A program made the position numbers and the translations under genes. Below, in pieces: positions 3,378-12,957 of a stretch of DNA of 38,806 nucleotides. The DNA is taken from IMG/VR virus record IMGVR_UViG_3300029578_000027, one strand, 5' to 3'. The stretch is from a virus. Within the stretch, counting starts at the first letter, position 1, and every line of letters begins with the position of its first letter. Under the pieces are notes generated by a model that made no database searches, was not told the origin of the DNA, and saw only the letters and a list, made by a program, of their open reading frames with translations.

Positions 3378-3594
3378 GGTCAGCACCTCCAAATTCCGCC
3401 TCGTACTGTTCCGGCGTGATAATCTCAATGTCCTTTGCGGAGTAGCCCAAGGTGTCGAGGCATATCAGCTTCGCCAGTTTGTCTTTGTCAAGGGCCGCCG
3501 CAGCGTCCTCATAGGATACGCCTGGTTTTGCCTCAAAGCTGATTTGAGCGCCAAACGCCCCAGCCACGCTAAAGCAGATTTTGTATTCAGCCAT
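3364..3594 (-). CDS. Hypothetical early protein
   Basis: ATG 3594 is preceded by GGAGGG and overlaps its neighbours. Confidence 0.55.
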   Translation of the reverse strand: MAEYKICFSVAGAFGAQISFEAKPGVSYEDAAAALDKDKLAKLICLDTLGYSAKDIEIITPEQYEAEFGGADHADD

Positions 3595-8485: not shown

Positions 8486-9825
8486 GTTTTCTTTTCCTCC
8501 GGGAAAACCTCGTCAATGTCACCGCGATCCTCCACAAGCTCCATCTGGACGCCGCGTCCCTCCCAGCCGTAAGCCCGCTTAGGGTCCCCGGTCTGATCCT
8601 GAAAGAAACGACGGGACTTCTTGTCGAAGTCAAGCCACTGGTGTCTGTGGGAGCCGTAGTCCCGGTTCTTCAGGATCTGCAGCAGAGGCTTTTCCTTGCC
8701 GTCCGTCTGATGGGTGGTGAGAAAAAACACATTGTCTGCCCGGTTAGTGATGTCTCCGGAACCGCTGACATCGTCTGAGGTGATTTTAGCGTTATTGTCA
8801 CTGGTAGATTTCCGAGGGTGCACCACCAGATGGGTGTGGACACCCCGGCGCTTGGAGAAGGTTACCAGCATTTGCGTGAATTTTGACTGCACACGGTTGA
8901 AGTCCCGCTCTGTGGAGTTGTCAAAGTCCACGGACATGATGTTATCGACCAGAAATACATCTGCGTTGTAGCGCATGTGGGCGTACTCAAACTGCCGCAG
9001 AATGGTCTCCGGATCGTGCCGGGTGTTGCGCTCCAAGTCAAAGAGCCAGAATCGCTCGTTGAGCCACTCGGAGATCTGCTTGTCCGCCAGAGCGTCCGCG
9101 GATGCCAGTTTTTTCCCGGTGGCCTGATCCGTGATGTACCGGATGTGCTCGGGACCCGCCGCTTGCAGATATGTCCACTCCCGGAACTGCTCCTTCGGCA
9201 GCTCACCGGAATACGCGCAGACGGTGTGTCCCTGATCCAAAGCCTCTAAAAGCATCTGGCTCAGCAGCGTGCTCTTGCCGATGCCTCGCTTGCCGGTCCA
9301 AACGGACAACTCCCCGGAGTAAAACCCGCCGATGCTGCTGTCAAGCACGGAAAACCGGGAGAGGGTCCGGGGAATCTTGCTCATGTCCCGCCGGGGGACT
9401 TCCGCCAGATTCAGCAAGCCATAGGCGGGCAGCTCCTCCGCTCCGGATAGGATATCCGGGAGGTGGGCCGCTCCGTACAGAGCCACATAGTCCTCAACGG
9501 TCTTACAGTTCCGCCAGCCGGCATCGGTAACGACGTATATACAGCTGGCCGGGAGCCGGGGGCGCAGTTCCGCCACCATCCGCTCTCTGGCGATGGCGTT
9601 GGCGGTGACGATCACCAAATAGGGGAACGCCTCTAAAAACGGACGGCAGCGCACAACATCATCCCAACTGCACCCCAGTCCAAGGCACACGGCATTCTCC
9701 CGAATAGCCGCCGCCTCCACAACGGTATCGCAGATCCAGAGACCTTGCGGTTTTTCCGGATCAATAAAAGCCGGTGAGAAGGTCAGGTATTTGCTGGCCT
9801 GCTCCATAGCTGCTTTAAATTCCAT
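8482..9825 (-). CDS. DnaB-family replicative helicase-like ATPase
   Basis: Walker A GKRGIGKST and Walker B DVFLVDNIM. The start is taken as ATG 9825 (MEFKAAMEQ), overlapping the upstream stop by 11 nt. The tracked N-terminal extension to 9960 lies inside the previous gene. Confidence 0.75.
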   Translation of the reverse strand: MEFKAAMEQASKYLTFSPAFIDPEKPQGLWICDTVVEAAAIRENAVCLGLGCSWDDVVRCRPFLEAFPYLVIVTANAIARERMVAELRPRLPASCIYVVTDAGWRNCKTVEDYVALYGAAHLPDILSGAEELPAYGLLNLAEVPRRDMSKIPRTLSRFSVLDSSIGGFYSGELSVWTGKRGIGKSTLLSQMLLEALDQGHTVCAYSGELPKEQFREWTYLQAAGPEHIRYITDQATGKKLASADALADKQISEWLNERFWLFDLERNTRHDPETILRQFEYAHMRYNADVFLVDNIMSVDFDNSTERDFNRVQSKFTQMLVTFSKRRGVHTHLVVHPRKSTSDNNAKITSDDVSGSGDITNRADNVFFLTTHQTDGKEKPLLQILKNRDYGSHRHQWLDFDKKSRRFFQDQTGDPKRAYGWEGRGVQMELVEDRGDIDEVFPEEKKT

Positions 9826-10573
9826 CCGTGTCACCTGCCTCCCAGCTCTCACTCCGGTCCGAATCGGACCGCCCCGGCAGCTCGTCCTCCCACCGGCGGC
9901 CGTTGAGCCATGTGGCGGGGTAGGGGATGTACGCCCCGCCGTCCCGCGTCCACTGCTCACAGGATGCCTGCGCCTTCAACGCCCGGAGGATGGTCTCCAC
10001 CAGCGCCTCGTCCGGCTTCAGCTTCGCCCAGGCCTTCCGCGCCCGCTGCTTGTCCACATGGCGGGGATACGCCGACCAAAACAAATCGAAGTGCGCATCT
10101 GCGCAGGGGGCTATAGGGGTATTTTTATTATTATCTTTTATACATTTAAAGGGGGGTGAAATTTTCTTCACCCCTGGGGTGCAGATTTTTTCAGGGGTGA
10201 AATTTTCTTCACCCCCCTGCGCATCGTCCGGAATCGCTGCCAGAGACCGCCCGATGTAGATCCGCCGACCGGTCCGCACCGTGCCGCTTTTATCCGGAGG
10301 AAGGGGGCCGTTATCCGTGTGGATGTGCCCCCGCTCTTGCAGCTCCGCCAGCATGGCCTGTACCGTCCGCTCAGACAGCACCCGCACGGAGCCGTCCTCG
10401 TCCACGGCAGTCATGTCCTCGATCAGCGTTGCGTTGGTTGCGTAGCAGAATCCCACCCGGTTGGCCCGCCGCGCGATCCGTGCGTATAGGATCAGCGACC
10501 GGGGCCGAAGCCCCGGATCGTCCAAAACCGGGCCGGGGATCCATGCCCCATAGCCGCAGTCATACCTTGCCAT
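9815..10573 (-). CDS. Replisome organiser / replication initiator-like protein
   Basis: N-terminal winged-helix-like part. The C-terminal motif FWSAYPRHVDKQRARKAWAKL...PYPATWLNGRRWED is typical of Firmicutes phage replication proteins. Contains an internal AT-rich repeat region. Confidence 0.7.
   Translation of the reverse strand: MARYDCGYGAWIPGPVLDDPGLRPRSLILYARIARRANRVGFCYATNATLIEDMTAVDEDGSVRVLSERTVQAMLAELQERGHIHTDNGPLPPDKSGTVRTGRRIYIGRSLAAIPDDAQGGEENFTPEKICTPGVKKISPPFKCIKDNNKNTPIAPCADAHFDLFWSAYPRHVDKQRARKAWAKLKPDEALVETILRALKAQASCEQWTRDGGAYIPYPATWLNGRRWEDELPGRSDSDRSESWEAGDTDGI
9855..9871. repeat. Dispersed palindrome copy 3 (17-nt form CGGTCCGAATCGGACCG)
   Basis: Perfect core at 9857-9869, in the C-terminal tail of the replisome organiser (read as SDSD). 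Confidence 0.95.
10119..10215. repeat. Candidate origin of replication: an AT-rich tract followed by two copies of the 22-nt hairpin repeat GGGGTGAAATTTTCTTCACCCC
   Basis: Copies at 10153-10174 and 10194-10215, with starts 41 bp apart. Each is an inverted repeat (GGTGAA/TTCACC). Preceded by gtatttttattattatcttttatacatttaaa. Embedded in the initiator gene, as in lambda-type ori. Confidence 0.6.
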
Positions 10574-10582
10574 ATTGCCCCC

Positions 10583-10906
10583 TTATCTTTCCAACCAGCA
10601 TCGCAGAAGTTCTTCAAACAGACGTTCATTCTTTTCATATGCAAAGATTGCTTGATTACTCTTAGCGGTTCTGGGAGATCCCCAGAAGCATTCCGGATTC
10701 TGCGTTGATTCAGAAATTGTTTGAACAAGCTCATCTGCCAAAACAGAGCATAATTTCCCAGCGAAATAGTCATCTTTTAAAGCTTCAAACAACTGCTGTT
10801 TTGCAGTCCTATACTGATGCATTTTGATTCCGCGCTGAGAATCTCCTCTGCTACACGGCTGTTGGCCAGCATCTATAAAATTCTTGTAAAGCCTTTCAAT
10901 ATCCAT
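10583..10906 (-). CDS. Hypothetical protein of the low-GC island
   Basis: ATG 10906 is preceded by AGGTGA. The tracked ORF starts at GTG 10915. Confidence 0.55.
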   Translation of the reverse strand: MDIERLYKNFIDAGQQPCSRGDSQRGIKMHQYRTAKQQLFEALKDDYFAGKLCSVLADELVQTISESTQNPECFWGSPRTAKSNQAIFAYEKNERLFEELLRCWLER

Positions 10907-10915
10907 TTCTTTCAC

Positions 10916-11752
10916 CTACCAATTAATTGTTTTATTAACTGCGTCCTGCTGCTGCTCTTTTGTCATCCGAGTATAAATTGCTGTCGTTGAAACGCTGGAA
11001 TGGCCAAGAACATCTGCCAGAAGAGATATGTTGTTGTTCCGCCGCAGGAATTGGACTGCAAACATGTGCCGAAAAGAGTGTGGATGCATGACTTTTTTAT
11101 CAATCCCATACCGCGCAGCAAACGTCATAAGCATTTGAGAAACGCCTCTGGTCGTGATTTGCCCTCCGTCTCGTCCAACAGCAAGAAAATCGTCCGGCCC
11201 AAAACCCGAATAATACCCATCAGCTTCATCCAGAAATGATTTCGGAATGTAAATCCTTCTAATTTTACCTTTCGTCCACATTTCCGCGTACCCTCTTGAA
11301 AAATCTGTTTTTTTTAGCCGCACATACTCACTAACACGGCAGCCAGTCGAAGCCAGTAACTTGATATTGTAATACCAGCGCATATTTCCATCATTTTTCA
11401 ATCCATCCAGCAGCTTTTTGTAGTCTTGTTCGGATATAACATTACTAACAGCTGTAGCCTGATGGACGCGCATCGTCTTGACTTTGCTTCCATCATCGTG
11501 AACCATCCCGCAGAACGAATTAAATGCATTGAGCTTAATGTTGATGGATTTCGCCTTCAATCCTTTTTCCTGTAGTTCCCGTTTCCAATCGAGGCCGTTT
11601 TTCTTTGATATTTTTCCGAATGATGAAAAGTACTGTTCCATCGCAGTTATGTATGCCCTTACGGTATTGTCAGACAGCTCTTTATCCTCGAGGTACTCAC
11701 GGAAAGACTCTATTTGATTTTTGCACGCCTCACCGCTTCGTCTTTTGCCCAC
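10916..11752 (-). CDS. Tyrosine recombinase (XerC/D-like), second copy in this genome
   Basis: N-terminal SAM-like domain (FREYLEDKELSDNTVRAY). Catalytic signature: TGCRVSE, HSFRHMFA, LGHSSVSTTAIYTRM. Confidence 0.85.
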   Translation of the reverse strand: MGKRRSGEACKNQIESFREYLEDKELSDNTVRAYITAMEQYFSSFGKISKKNGLDWKRELQEKGLKAKSINIKLNAFNSFCGMVHDDGSKVKTMRVHQATAVSNVISEQDYKKLLDGLKNDGNMRWYYNIKLLASTGCRVSEYVRLKKTDFSRGYAEMWTKGKIRRIYIPKSFLDEADGYYSGFGPDDFLAVGRDGGQITTRGVSQMLMTFAARYGIDKKVMHPHSFRHMFAVQFLRRNNNISLLADVLGHSSVSTTAIYTRMTKEQQQDAVNKTINW

Positions 11753-12207
11753 GGGTGTTCATCCCCTCCTCTGTGAAATCTTGCCTGAATCTCGTCGTAG
11801 TGCTTTTGACAAACCTTTTTCCCTTCTAAAGCCGGAGAATCACAAAACCAACATAGCCCATTTTTAATACGTTCTCTACGAGGGTCTCCGCGCAATGCGC
11901 GTTGTTGCTTTTCTTTTTCATGCCTTCTCTGATGTTTCATATAGCACTCAAGACATAGCTGACCTTTTACTGCCGCTTTGCCACAGATTGGGCATAATCC
12001 AGCGGATATACGGGCATCCCGCTTTTCTTTTCTTCTCTGGTAATAATTGCGTTCCCTTTCGAGGCTCCTGTATTTTATGTTATTTAGCGTCGCTTTTTCT
12101 AAACATTCTGGGCACTTCTGTCTCCCGTTAAATGCATCACGCTGTCCGCAGGAAACGCATATTTTATGCTCTATATACCATTGGCGAAGAGGAACGCTAT
12201 TTCCCAT
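11710..12207 (-). CDS. Triple zinc-ribbon basic protein
   Basis: Three modules: CVSCG...CPEC, CPICG...CLEC and CWFC...CQKH, separated by Arg/Lys-rich linkers. Low GC. Confidence 0.6.
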   Translation of the reverse strand: MGNSVPLRQWYIEHKICVSCGQRDAFNGRQKCPECLEKATLNNIKYRSLERERNYYQRRKEKRDARISAGLCPICGKAAVKGQLCLECYMKHQRRHEKEKQQRALRGDPRRERIKNGLCWFCDSPALEGKKVCQKHYDEIQARFHRGGDEHPWAKDEAVRRAKIK

Positions 12208-12283
12208 GCAACCACCTCAAATCCTACAAATTAAAAGAAAATCTGCATTGCCCCTCACAATCCGACAATACCACTATCTTCAG

Positions 12284-12382
12284 TTAATTCCGAAAACCCT
12301 CCATCAGATCCACGATCCGCAGTGGGATTGCCGCCACCGTCGCCACGCCGACGACCATGAAAAACATCGCCCAACCGGTCAC
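12284..12382 (-). CDS. Possible 32-aa membrane peptide
   Basis: GTG start forms a GTGA overlap with the stop of 12379-12957. Encodes VTGWAMFFMVVGVATVAAIPLRIVDLMEGFRN. Below the ORF-track cutoff. Confidence 0.3.
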   Translation of the reverse strand: MTGWAMFFMVVGVATVAAIPLRIVDLMEGFRN

Positions 12383-12957
12383 AGGGATACGCCCCCTTCC
12401 CGGCGAAAATTAGGGCTTGCGTGCAGCGTGGACCTTGTGCTATAATTGATACATCCAGTGGTTGATCCAATACCACACACTTTTTCCCCTGAACGCTCTG
12501 AGGTGCCAGCCTCGGGGCGTTCTCTTTTTGCGCCTGAGTAGATCACCTGGTAGATGGCCGCCATGGTCTCCCGCAGCTCCACCACGATGGAATCGAACTC
12601 CGGCCGCTCAGCCTCGTCAATCACGCCGTCCTCCGCGATCCGGAGCAGGGCATCCAACCGGCCAGTCGCGTCTTGCAGACGGTTCCGCAGGGCGATGCTC
12701 GCCATTGGAAGCGGCCTTGGCGTCACCTCCGGCATCACGCCCAGCGTGTCCGTGGCCTGCGCGTGCTCCAATGCCAACCATGGGCAGCTGTACGCCTCCA
12801 CCATCTTGGCCACCGTCTCATCCTTGGGCACCGTCTTGCCGCCCTCGTACTGTTTCAGACTTTCCGGCGACAGTCCAAGCAGCTCCGCTGCACGTTCTTG
12901 GCTCATTCCGGTACTCAGCCTTGCCCTCTGGTACAAATTCGGGTACTTCCGCTCCAT
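12379..12957 (-). CDS. XRE-family HTH protein with extended C-terminal domain
   Basis: N-terminal segment ARLSTGMSQERAAELLGLSPESLKQYEGGKTVP is an XRE helix-turn-helix. Confidence 0.7.
   Translation of the reverse strand: MERKYPNLYQRARLSTGMSQERAAELLGLSPESLKQYEGGKTVPKDETVAKMVEAYSCPWLALEHAQATDTLGVMPEVTPRPLPMASIALRNRLQDATGRLDALLRIAEDGVIDEAERPEFDSIVVELRETMAAIYQVIYSGAKRERPEAGTSERSGEKVCGIGSTTGCINYSTRSTLHASPNFRREGGVSL

What the first reader, a model, noticed from the sequence alone, without database searches (positions are those of the whole stretch)
10574..12254. 1.7-kb low-GC insertion with a second tyrosine recombinase and a triple zinc-ribbon protein, flanked by an 8-bp direct repeat
The three genes 10583-10906 (unknown), 10916-11752 (XerC/D-like recombinase with the full R...HxxR...H...Y signature) and 11710-12207 (three CxxC...CxxC modules) are visibly AT-richer than the GC-rich flanks. 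ATTGCCCC occurs at both borders (10574-10581 and 12247-12254).

Removing the insert with one repeat copy would join ...TGTGAGGGGCAAT directly to the ATG of the replisome organiser gene. That gives a normal RBS spacing, as expected for a clean insertion into an ancestral intergenic site.

This could be a small recombinase-driven hitchhiker element inside a phage early operon. Alternatively the recombinase could be an invertase/resolvase serving the phage, for example dimer resolution for an episomal state together with ParAB.
Basis: partly seen in the sequence, partly recalled or inferred. Interest (0 to 1): 0.62.

Follow-up and report, generated by a model that had tools for sequence, protein, structure and literature searches.

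The report
Mobile recombinase trio inside gut phage
A 1.7-kb AT-rich three-gene cassette (a zinc-ribbon protein, a small tyrosine recombinase and a helical protein) was inserted recently into this gut Clostridia phage; it belongs to an unnamed family that turns up at many different gene boundaries in phage genomes and may be a minimal cargo-free mobile element.

Summary
The low-GC block and its three genes are real: GC is 0.431 against 0.581 for the rest of the window, and GC3 is 0.36-0.46 against 0.72-0.87.

At least five phages with 93-97% identical flanks lack the block. They place the junctions at 10590-10593 and 12300-12303, with a 4-bp TCCA on each side. The insert is therefore 10594-12303 (1,710 bp). 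The second ATTGCCCC copy lies inside the insert and is a chance match.

The same element (93% nt identity, same ends) sits at a different site in another phage. More diverged copies occur in at least 12 contexts, always as zinc-ribbon gene, then Xer-like recombinase, usually then ORF3. All copies stay at 43-47% GC whatever the host phage GC (47-66%).

The recombinase has all catalytic residues and dN/dS of about 0.1. In one relative the zinc-ribbon protein is fused to it. ORF3 runs across the element's 3' end.

Best reading (about 0.55): a cargo-free, self-mobilising tyrosine-recombinase element of phage genomes. Main rival (about 0.3): a passive cassette shuffled by microhomology, with the recombinase serving the phage, for example in multimer resolution.

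Two unfollowed first-reader notes on other DNA describe the same cassette.

The parts
10594..12303 (-). Inserted cassette: 1,706 bp unique plus one copy of the 4-bp junction repeat, 1,710 bp in all
   Evidence: BLAST to relatives breaks at window 10589-10596 and resumes at 12299-12309 in L003, L004, L006, L007, L008, L009, L011, L012, L013 and L020. It is continuous in L001, L005 and L019. Junction sequences were read directly.
10590..10593 (.). TCCA, left junction copy (TGGA in gene orientation)
   Evidence: The empty site reads ...CTTATCTT-TCCA-TCCGATCC.... The occupied site has TCCA at both ends.
12300..12303 (.). TCCA, right junction copy
11710..12207 (-). Triple zinc-ribbon protein, 165 aa (C17/C20/C32/C35; C72/C75/C85/C-or-H88; C119/C122/C133/H136), with basic helical linkers and a conserved HPW motif
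   Evidence: Alignment A1. AF2 pLDDT 85 with no PDB fold match. Only sub-threshold DZR hits in Pfam. Always found upstream of the recombinase. Fused to the recombinase in L039.
10916..11752 (-). Xer-like simple tyrosine recombinase, 278 aa, with core-binding and catalytic domains and no arm-binding domain. The GTG start lies inside the HPW codons of the zinc-ribbon gene, in the -1 frame, with a 43-nt overlap.
   Evidence: Pfam, NCBIfam and PDB hits. Catalytic residues. Conserved start-in-HPW arrangement. dN/dS about 0.10.
10583..10906 (-). ORF3, about 107 conserved residues, a four-helix bundle (FWGS motif, ...RLFEELLRCW end). Its last three codons and stop (10583-10593) come from the phage flank.
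   Evidence: Alignment A2. AF2 pLDDT 92.8 with no PDB match. Homology among copies ends at the W107 codon in eight contexts.
12208..12299 (-). 92-nt 5' leader. The terminal motif GGGTTTTCGGAATTAACTG (12281-12299) is the conserved 5' end of this element type.
   Evidence: The same end, to within 1 nt, is seen in five contexts: window, L023/L050, L228, L230 and L399.
12247..12254 (+). It is internal to the leader and is not a border.
10574..10581 (+). It is the native RBS/spacer of the replisome-organiser gene and is also present in empty-site phages.
12284..12382 (-). Small hydrophobic ORF (32 aa, VTGWAMFFMVVGVATVAAIPLRIVDLMEGFRN). The insertion changes its natural tail ...DRMER* to ...DLMEGFRN*.
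   Evidence: Translation. The peptide is conserved with conservative changes in empty-site relatives L003 and L008, read.
9815..10573 (-). Replisome-organiser-like gene immediately downstream. It must be read through the insert.
   Evidence: No minus-strand terminator or promoter stands out in the insert.

Best explanation
**What it is.** Positions 10594-12303 are a discrete, recently acquired 1.7-kb mobile cassette. It carries no cargo, only three co-transcribed genes:
- a triple zinc-ribbon protein;
- a simple (arm-less) Xer-like tyrosine recombinase, translationally coupled to the zinc-ribbon gene;
- a four-helix protein (ORF3) whose reading frame runs across the element's 3' end.

**Most likely mechanism.** The element moves itself.
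1. The recombinase is targeted by the zinc-ribbon protein, which acts as a trans-supplied N-terminal DNA-binding module.
2. The recombinase excises the element as a circle. In the circle the 3' end (...GCGATGCTGG) is joined to the 5' end (GGGTTWTCGGAATTA...).
3. It then recombines that joint with short, purine-rich, Shine-Dalgarno-like sequences (TGGA, GATGGAGG) at gene boundaries of co-infecting phages.
4. This leaves a short junction repeat: 4 bp here, 13 bp in L400.

**Shown:**
- It is an insertion rather than a deletion, and the junctions are exact.
- Two or more independent sites share the same ends.
- The gene trio is conserved and under purifying selection.
- A natural zinc-ribbon-recombinase fusion exists.
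- Composition does not ameliorate towards the host phage.

**Inferred:**
- The element's own recombinase performs the insertion.
- There is a circular intermediate.
- The roles of the zinc-ribbon protein and ORF3.
For: 1. **Empty sites.** Phages with 93-97% identical flanks (L003, L006, L011, L012, L013, plus more distant ones) lack exactly this block. Three records carry it.
2. **Second site, same ends.** A 93.4% identical copy with the same ends (window 12298..10588) sits in a different place, the repressor-gene region, of a different phage: L023/L045/L050.
3. **End precision.** Copies of 66-85% identity in further contexts (L228, L230, L399) start at the same GGG(Y)TWKYGGAATTA motif within 1 nt. 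All copies lose homology at the same TGG codon of ORF3.
4. **Trio conservation.** The trio recurs in at least 12 phage contexts: before the replisome organiser, between DnaB and ParA, between TerL and portal, and among early genes.
5. **More empty sites.** Two more occupied/empty pairs were found, L046 against L239/L251/L253 and L051 against L317-319. L400 is flanked by a perfect 13-bp direct repeat, ATCGAGATGGAGG, that rebuilds the target gene's natural C-terminus.
6. **Composition.** Element GC stays at 0.43-0.47 in phages of GC 0.47-0.66, even between copies only about 66% identical.
7. **Functional genes.** The recombinase has intact catalytic residues and dN/dS of 0.10. ORF3 has dN/dS of 0.2-0.5.
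8. **Fusion.** In L039 the zinc-ribbon protein and the recombinase form a single 435-aa ORF.
9. **Literature.** Published classification holds that MGE recombinases differ from Xer by gaining an N-terminal DNA-binding domain (PMC8138268). That fits a trans-acting or fused zinc-ribbon partner.
Against: - No terminal inverted repeats and no dyad-symmetric core site were found at the ends.
- The junction repeat length is inconsistent: 4 bp in the window, 13 bp in L400, about 2-4 bp or none in others.
- In L051 the insert carries 17 nt beyond the 5' motif and 26 nt beyond the 3' TGG. In L046 about 10 nt of target are replaced. Both look like microhomology or illegitimate joins.
- Several copies lack the leader and 5' motif altogether (L046, L048, L049, L400, L024). 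L024 and L049 lack ORF3.
- The TerL-portal slot used by L046 also holds at least three unrelated inserts with nearly the same borders. These phages therefore shuffle cassettes at gene boundaries without this recombinase.
- The element is single-copy and rare. It was found in 1 of 401 genomes of the order by DNA and 1 of 399 genomes of the class by profile.
- No circle junction or excision product has been observed.
Confidence: 0.55

Rival explanations
1. Passive accessory cassette (moron). The trio is moved between phages by microhomology-driven or relaxed homologous recombination at gene boundaries and RBS-like sequences, not by its own enzyme. The recombinase and its partners serve the phage. 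One candidate role is Cre/lox-like resolution of multimers of an episomal, ParAB-maintained prophage or of replication concatemers, at a site inside the cassette.
For: - The window phage, L051 and L048 carry ParA and/or ParB near the trio.
- Junctions in L051 and L046 are imprecise and microhomology-like.
- The TerL-portal slot holds several unrelated alternative inserts at the same borders.
- The element has no inverted-repeat ends.
- It is single-copy and rare.
- By sequence the recombinase is closest to the Xer resolvases.
Against: - Near-isogenic ParAB phages lack the trio.
- No dyad-symmetric resolution site is visible, and several copies have almost no non-coding DNA.
- The 5' end coincides within 1 nt in five unrelated contexts. 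Random joins do not predict this.
- GC never ameliorates towards the host phage. That argues for short residence times rather than a retained useful gene.
Confidence: 0.3
2. The block is ancestral in this phage lineage, and the 'empty' relatives lost it by a clean deletion between the two TCCA copies.
For: A 4-bp direct repeat could mediate a slipped deletion.
Against: - The block's GC and GC3 are foreign to the phage.
- The same block with the same ends lies at other sites in other phages.
- The empty sites preserve an intact conserved small ORF whose tail the block disrupts.
- Empty sites occur in both close and distant relatives.
Confidence: 0.04
3. DNA invertase or phase-variation switch acting on an invertible segment of the phage, as in a shufflon or Rci-type system.
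For: Small tyrosine recombinases include invertases. There are weak sub-threshold NCBIfam hits to tyrosine-type invertases, with E of 0.0015-0.006.
Against: - No inverted repeats of useful length lie in or around the cassette.
- The cassette is dispensable in isogenic phages.
- The invertase model scores (16-18 bits) are far below their cut-offs (221-222 bits).
Confidence: 0.03

Closest known systems
Xer-family simple tyrosine recombinases (archaeal XerA, PDB 4a8e/5hxy; bacterial XerC/XerD)
   Same: The best sequence matches are XerA 4a8e at 4e-23 and NF040815 at 2.8e-41. The two-domain architecture (core-binding plus catalytic) is the same, and the full R-K-H-R-H-Y set is present.
   Different: - Scores are far below the equivalog cut-offs: 142 against 220, and 111 against 335.
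- The gene is encoded on an AT-rich cassette inside phages, not at a chromosomal locus.
- It is always paired with a zinc-ribbon protein.
- No dif-like site was seen.
Arm-less phage integrases of the Brujita type (Int_Brujita subgroup; from my own knowledge of Lunt & Hatfull 2016, not checked here)
   Same: A small tyrosine integrase without an arm-binding domain. It is expected to be simple, weakly directional and promiscuous in site choice.
   Different: - Those integrate a whole phage into the host chromosome.
- Here the unit moved is only the recombinase module itself, and the target is phage DNA.
- The partner zinc-ribbon protein and ORF3 have no counterpart.
Tn554 (tnpA, tnpB, tnpC), and the Tn916/CTnDOT class of tyrosine-recombinase transposons
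   Same: - A mobility module of three genes.
- No terminal inverted repeats.
- No regular target duplication.
- Short, variable junction (coupling-like) sequences.
- Insertion tolerant of heterology.
   Different: - Only one recombinase here, and it is not in the TnpA subgroup.
- No cargo, and 1.7 kb against 6.7 kb or more.
- No Xis or arm-binding domain.
- The hosts are phage genomes.
- Membership is not met (see the membership test).
Cre/loxP of phage P1 (a phage-borne simple tyrosine recombinase for multimer resolution)
   Same: A simple tyrosine recombinase carried by a phage that also has partition genes. This is the model for the rival reading.
   Different: No lox-like 13-8-13 dyad was found. 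The cassette is dispensable in isogenic phages and is found at structural-gene positions.
Free-standing homing-endonuclease genes and other selfish inserts at phage gene boundaries
   Same: The same niche and footprint. It is a small, sporadically present insert between conserved phage genes, with presence/absence polymorphism among near-identical phages. The TerL-portal hot spot is an example.
   Different: The enzyme is a site-specific recombinase, not a nuclease. The only HNH signal is a sub-threshold PHROG hit (phrog_20467, E = 0.003) to residues 12-40 of the zinc-ribbon protein, i.e. its first zinc ribbon; no nuclease domain was detected in any of the three proteins.

Membership tests
Tyrosine recombinase superfamily (Pfam PF00589) | Catalytic domain with R...K...HxxR...H/W...Y | tested here: met
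   PF00589 at 1.7e-23, 83.7 bits against a cut-off of 27.1. R139, K161/163, H225, R228, H251 and Y260 aligned to XerA 4a8e.
XerC/XerD/XerA chromosome-dimer resolvases (NCBIfam equivalogs) | Score above the curated equivalog cut-off | tested here: not met
   NF040815 scores 141.8 against 220. TIGR02224 scores 111 against 335. TIGR02225 scores 106.5 against 330.
XerC/XerD/XerA chromosome-dimer resolvases | Conserved chromosomal gene acting at a dif site | tested here: not met
   The gene is encoded in an AT-rich insert of phage genomes. It was found in 1 of 401 (DNA) and 1 of 399 (profile) sampled host-clade genomes. No dyad site was found.
Arm-binding phage/ICE integrases (complex YRs, PMC8138268) | N-terminal arm-binding domain on the same polypeptide | tested here: not met
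   The 278-aa protein starts directly with the SAM-like core-binding domain, residues 14-80. A zinc-ribbon module is supplied in trans, and is fused only in L039.
Tn554 family | Two tyrosine recombinases (TnpA, TnpB) plus TnpC | tested here: not met
   There is only one PF00589 protein. The zinc-ribbon protein and ORF3 have no recombinase domain.
Tn554 family | No terminal inverted repeats and no regular target duplication | tested here: met
   No terminal IR. Junction repeats are 4 bp, 13 bp, or 0-4 bp in different insertions.
Bacterial insertion sequences (ISfinder sense) | Under 2.5 kb and encoding only mobility functions | tested here: inconclusive
   The element is 1.7 kb with three genes and no recognisable cargo. 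The functions of two of the genes are unknown.
Bacterial insertion sequences (ISfinder sense) | Terminal inverted repeats, fixed-length target duplication, and multiple copies per genome | tested here: not met
   No IRs. Junction repeats vary in length. There is a single copy per phage, and the element is rare in genomes.
Integron integrases | IntI-specific score and additional domain; adjacent attI and attC cassettes | tested here: not met
   TIGR02249 scores 62 against 265. NF011946 scores 41 against 435. No repeat arrays were found.
Gamma-mobile-trio (GmtY/Z/X) | GmtY equivalog score | tested here: not met
   NF040693 scores 16.2 bits against 340.
Cre/lox-type phage resolution systems | A cis-acting dyad-symmetric site next to the recombinase gene | tested here: inconclusive
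   No convincing dyad was found in the leader or at the ends. Activity cannot be tested with these tools.

The most novel reading that the evidence does not exclude
This is a previously undescribed class of prokaryotic transposable element. It is an IS-sized, cargo-free unit mobilised by a simple tyrosine recombinase whose DNA-targeting domain is a separate triple zinc-ribbon protein. It is specialised to parasitise phage genomes. It inserts, in operon orientation, into Shine-Dalgarno-like sequences at gene boundaries, so host-operon transcription reads through it and the element's last gene borrows its tail from the target.
Probability: 0.4. Interest if true: 0.8.

Novelty: new variant of a known kind. 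Interest (0 to 1): 0.66.

Why it matters
No cargo-free insertion-sequence-like element driven by a tyrosine site-specific recombinase is established in bacteria (my own knowledge of the IS literature, not checked here). Mobile elements that live in phage genomes are mostly known as homing endonucleases, introns or DDE insertion sequences.

A 1.7-kb self-contained tyrosine-recombinase unit would be interesting for three reasons:
- It would be a new type of selfish DNA that shapes phage mosaicism. It appears to tolerate many targets and works in phages of very different GC content.
- It would be a natural example of a Xer-like enzyme gaining mobility through a trans-acting or fused DNA-binding partner.
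- It could serve as a compact recombination tool.

It would also give a first functional context to a large unnamed zinc-ribbon protein family of about 2,900 clusters at 50% identity.

If the rival reading is right, the cassette is an ordinary but still unannotated phage accessory module.

Tried and rejected
The 8-bp ATTGCCCC repeat is rejected as the border by the empty sites and by a chance estimate.
- **Terminal or dyad repeats.** None were found at the element ends.
- **Programmed -1 frameshift fusing zinc-ribbon protein and recombinase.** The -1 frame relation is conserved. However, a conserved (A/G)TG start inside the HPW codons with an upstream GGAGG, and the lack of a conserved slippery heptamer, point to translational coupling. 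L034 has the two genes separated by a gap. L039 is a true in-frame fusion.
- **Fold searches.** Searches with good models of the zinc-ribbon protein (pLDDT 85) and ORF3 (pLDDT 93) found no PDB match at E of 0.001 or better.
- **RNA and signals.** Rfam found nothing. The promoter and terminator scan found nothing significant on the gene strand.
- **23-mer scan for the element subtype.** Only the already known records came back.
- **Circle or tandem junction scan in genome contigs.** There was one hit, in a Pirellulaceae MAG, with no homology to the element, so a chance match.
- **TCGGA motif.** Enrichment upstream of the zinc-ribbon gene was 7 observed against 2.3 expected (P about 0.009). The hits are partly related by descent, so this is treated only as a lead.
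- **Cultured phages and plasmids.** Megablast of the region against the cultured-phage collection (INPHARED) found no match. A protein search found only a lone, distant zinc-ribbon homologue without a recombinase in Clostridium phage phiCp-D, plus homologues in two 55-57-kb C. perfringens plasmid records and two Subdoligranulum variabile records (215 and 387 kb).
Full report
**1. Observation**

Region 10574-12254 does contain three tightly packed minus-strand ORFs.
- The middle one (10916-11752, 278 aa) is a tyrosine recombinase. It hits PF00589 at 1.7e-23 plus an N-terminal SAM-like core-binding domain. Its best relatives are Xer-type enzymes, all far below their family cut-offs: NF040815 XerA at 141.8 bits against 220, and PDB 4a8e at 4e-23. 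The alignment to XerA places R139, K161/163, H225-x-x-R228, H251 and Y260.
- The upstream ORF (11710-12207, 165 aa) has three invariant zinc ribbons separated by basic helices.
- The downstream ORF (10583-10906) has no family hit.

The composition contrast is real and extreme. GC is 0.431 for 10594-12299 against 0.581 for the rest, lower than any other 1.7-kb window (z = -4.6). GC3 is 0.36-0.46 against 0.72-0.87 in the neighbours.

ATTGCCCC does occur at 10574 and at 12247. Such an 8-mer is shared by 13.5% of comparable window pairs.

**2. True borders**

The window's own assembly is not held. Relatives of the replisome-organiser gene were fetched instead.
- Three records carry the block at about 95% identity: L001/L019 and L005.
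- L003, L006, L011, L012 and L013 have 93-97% identical flanks and lack the block. So do the more distant L004, L007, L008, L009 and L020.

The junctions read as follows:

| Site | Sequence |
|---|---|
| Empty site | ...CATATTGCCCCCTTATCTT-TCCA-TCCGATCCACG... |
| Window, left | ...CTT-TCCA\|ACCAGC |
| Window, right | AACCC-TCCA\|TCAGATCC |

The insert is therefore 10594-12303, which is 1,706 bp plus one copy of a 4-bp TCCA. The second lies 46 nt inside the insert, at a leader position that reads ATGGCAAC or ATGGTAAC in sister copies.

The insertion is not in empty intergenic DNA. It falls in the third-from-last codon of a conserved 32-aa hydrophobic ORF (12284-12382) and changes ...DRMER* to ...DLMEGFRN*.

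**3. It is a discrete unit found elsewhere**

A copy that is 93.4% identical over window 12298..10588 lies in another phage, L023/L045, and also on the Logan contig L050. Its flanks are unrelated there, between repressor-like genes.

More diverged copies have the same limits:
- L228 is 85% identical and L230 is 66% identical.
- L399 has the same 5' end.

In five contexts the element starts within 1 nt of GGG(T/C)T(T/A)(T/G)(C/T)GGAATTA. In eight contexts homology stops at the same TGG codon, W107 of ORF3 (...RLFEELLRCW). After that codon each copy reads a different tail from its flank.

**4. The family**

The zinc-ribbon gene and recombinase are always adjacent and in that order. A homologous ORF3 usually follows. 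At least 12 distinct phage contexts were seen:
- between DnaB and ParA (L051-54);
- between TerL and portal (L046/47; L024/25/30 lack ORF3);
- among early genes (L048, L049, L400, L401, L228, L229);
- in distant Lachnospiraceae prophage-like loci (L034-L041).

Further features of the family:
- The recombinase start codon, (A/G)TG, sits inside the conserved HPW codons of the zinc-ribbon ORF. It is always in the -1 frame, with a GGAGG upstream. This indicates translational coupling.
- In L039 the two proteins are one 435-aa ORF with a PF00589 domain.
- The recombinase is under strong purifying selection (dN/dS 0.10). ORF3 shows dN/dS of 0.2-0.5.
- One copy, L229, has a decayed ORF3.
- The zinc-ribbon profile finds about 2,900 clusters at 50% identity, 856 of them at 1e-10 or better. 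Most are stand-alone, multi-repeat and unnamed.
- Structure models of the zinc-ribbon protein (pLDDT 85) and ORF3 (pLDDT 93, four-helix bundle) have no PDB counterpart.
- The element keeps GC at 0.43-0.47 in phages of GC 0.47-0.66, even between copies that are only about 66% identical.
- It is rare in bacterial genomes. It was found in 1 of 401 genomes of the order by DNA and 1 of 399 genomes of the class by profile. In both cases the hit is the MAG that holds this same phage.

**5. How it got there**

Two further occupied/empty pairs and one self-evident junction were analysed.
- **L400.** The trio is bracketed by a perfect 13-bp direct repeat, ATCGAGATGGAGG (19 of 24 nt with its extension). 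This repeat rebuilds the natural C-terminus (...AFLIEMEG) of the target gene, as seen in 60 homologues. It is also the RBS of the next gene. It resembles the window's target GGATCGGATGGAAAG and its attL ATCTGATGGAGGG.
- **L046.** About 10 nt of target are replaced. The same TerL-portal slot holds at least three unrelated inserts (about 0.65, 0.85 and 1.56 kb) with nearly the same borders in sister phages.
- **L051.** The insert carries 17 nt beyond the 5' motif and 26 nt beyond the 3' TGG, with only 2-4 nt of microhomology.

No terminal inverted repeats or dyad core were found.

The evidence is therefore mixed. The precision of the ends in the window-type copies, and the 13-bp core in L400, fit site-specific recombination by the element's own enzyme. 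The targets would be short, purine-rich, SD-like sequences, which would also explain the gene-boundary positions and, in most contexts, the operon orientation. L046 and L051, and the general cassette traffic at gene boundaries in these phages, fit passive transfer by microhomology.

**6. Verdict**

That the block is a recent horizontal insertion of a discrete, conserved three-gene unit is well supported (about 0.9). That the unit mobilises itself through its tyrosine recombinase, with the zinc-ribbon protein as DNA-targeting partner, is the best single explanation (about 0.55). The main rival is a passive accessory cassette whose recombinase serves the phage, for example in multimer resolution in ParAB phages (about 0.3). 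Deletion in the empty relatives and an invertase role are unlikely.

**7. Relation to known systems**

By sequence the enzyme is a simple Xer-like tyrosine recombinase, but it is not a member of the XerC, XerD or XerA equivalogs. By behaviour it is closest to arm-less promiscuous integrases and to Tn554/Tn916-type tyrosine transposons, which also lack inverted repeats and a regular duplication. It fails the Tn554 membership test because it has one recombinase and no cargo. It also fails the usual IS criteria of inverted repeats, fixed duplication and multiple copies.

The published classification of tyrosine recombinases (PMC8138268) states that MGE-borne enzymes evolved from Xer-like ones by gaining an N-terminal DNA-binding domain. 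The split or fused zinc-ribbon partner here looks like an independent version of that step.

Literature searches found no description of this trio. Two first-reader notes from other windows of this scan describe the same cassette on other DNA and were not followed up.

**8. Limits**

The L023, L228, L230 and L399 borders rest on loss of homology between copies, not on matched empty sites.

Noticed in passing
window 12284-12382 (-): There is a conserved 32-aa hydrophobic ORF (VTGWAMFFMVVGVATVAAIPLRIVD...) between the XRE-type gene and the replisome organiser. Its start overlaps the upstream stop in a GTGA arrangement. The insertion rewrites its last residues.
   Followed up: partly
L046 2440-4078, and L237-L301 at the TerL/portal junction: In this phage family the few bases between the terminase large subunit and the portal gene are an insertion hot spot. 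Sister phages are empty, or carry the trio, or carry at least three other unrelated inserts (about 0.65, 0.85 and 1.56 kb). All have nearly the same borders at the RBS/start of the portal gene.
   Followed up: partly
L400 about 1800-1840 and 3440-3480: A perfect 13-bp direct repeat, ATCGAGATGGAGG, flanks the trio. The downstream copy restores the natural ...AFLIEMEG C-terminus of a dGTP_diPhyd_N-family gene and is the RBS of the next gene.
   Followed up: yes
L039 4482-5789: A natural in-frame fusion of the triple zinc-ribbon module and the tyrosine recombinase (435 aa) occurs in a Lachnospiraceae MAG.
   Followed up: yes
L054 (Logan contig, 1,775 nt): The contig equals the L051-type insert plus about 35 nt on each side. 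This is the pattern expected when occupied and empty alleles coexist in one sample and break the assembly graph at the junctions.
   Followed up: no
L229 1353-1571: This copy of the element has an internal deletion and frameshift in ORF3, so some copies are decaying.
   Followed up: partly
window 12491-12522 (+): A strong terminator-like hairpin (14 pairs, then TCTTTTT) lies on the plus strand, inside the 3' part of the minus-strand XRE-type ORF 12379-12957.
   Followed up: no
Clostridium phage phiCp-D MW478291.1 49677-50147 (L396 3920-4390): This cultured C. perfringens phage, and two 55-57-kb C. perfringens plasmid records, carry a lone distant homologue of the triple zinc-ribbon protein with no adjacent recombinase. 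The zinc-ribbon family is therefore broader than the trio (about 2,900 clusters, unnamed).
   Followed up: partly
window leader 12208-12299 (-), and L051 3967-4000: T(N)TCGGA-type words recur near the 5' end and upstream of the zinc-ribbon start. There are two in the window leader and two 10 nt apart in L051. Enrichment is 7 observed against 2.3 expected. They may be protein-binding sites, but the evidence is weak.
   Followed up: partly
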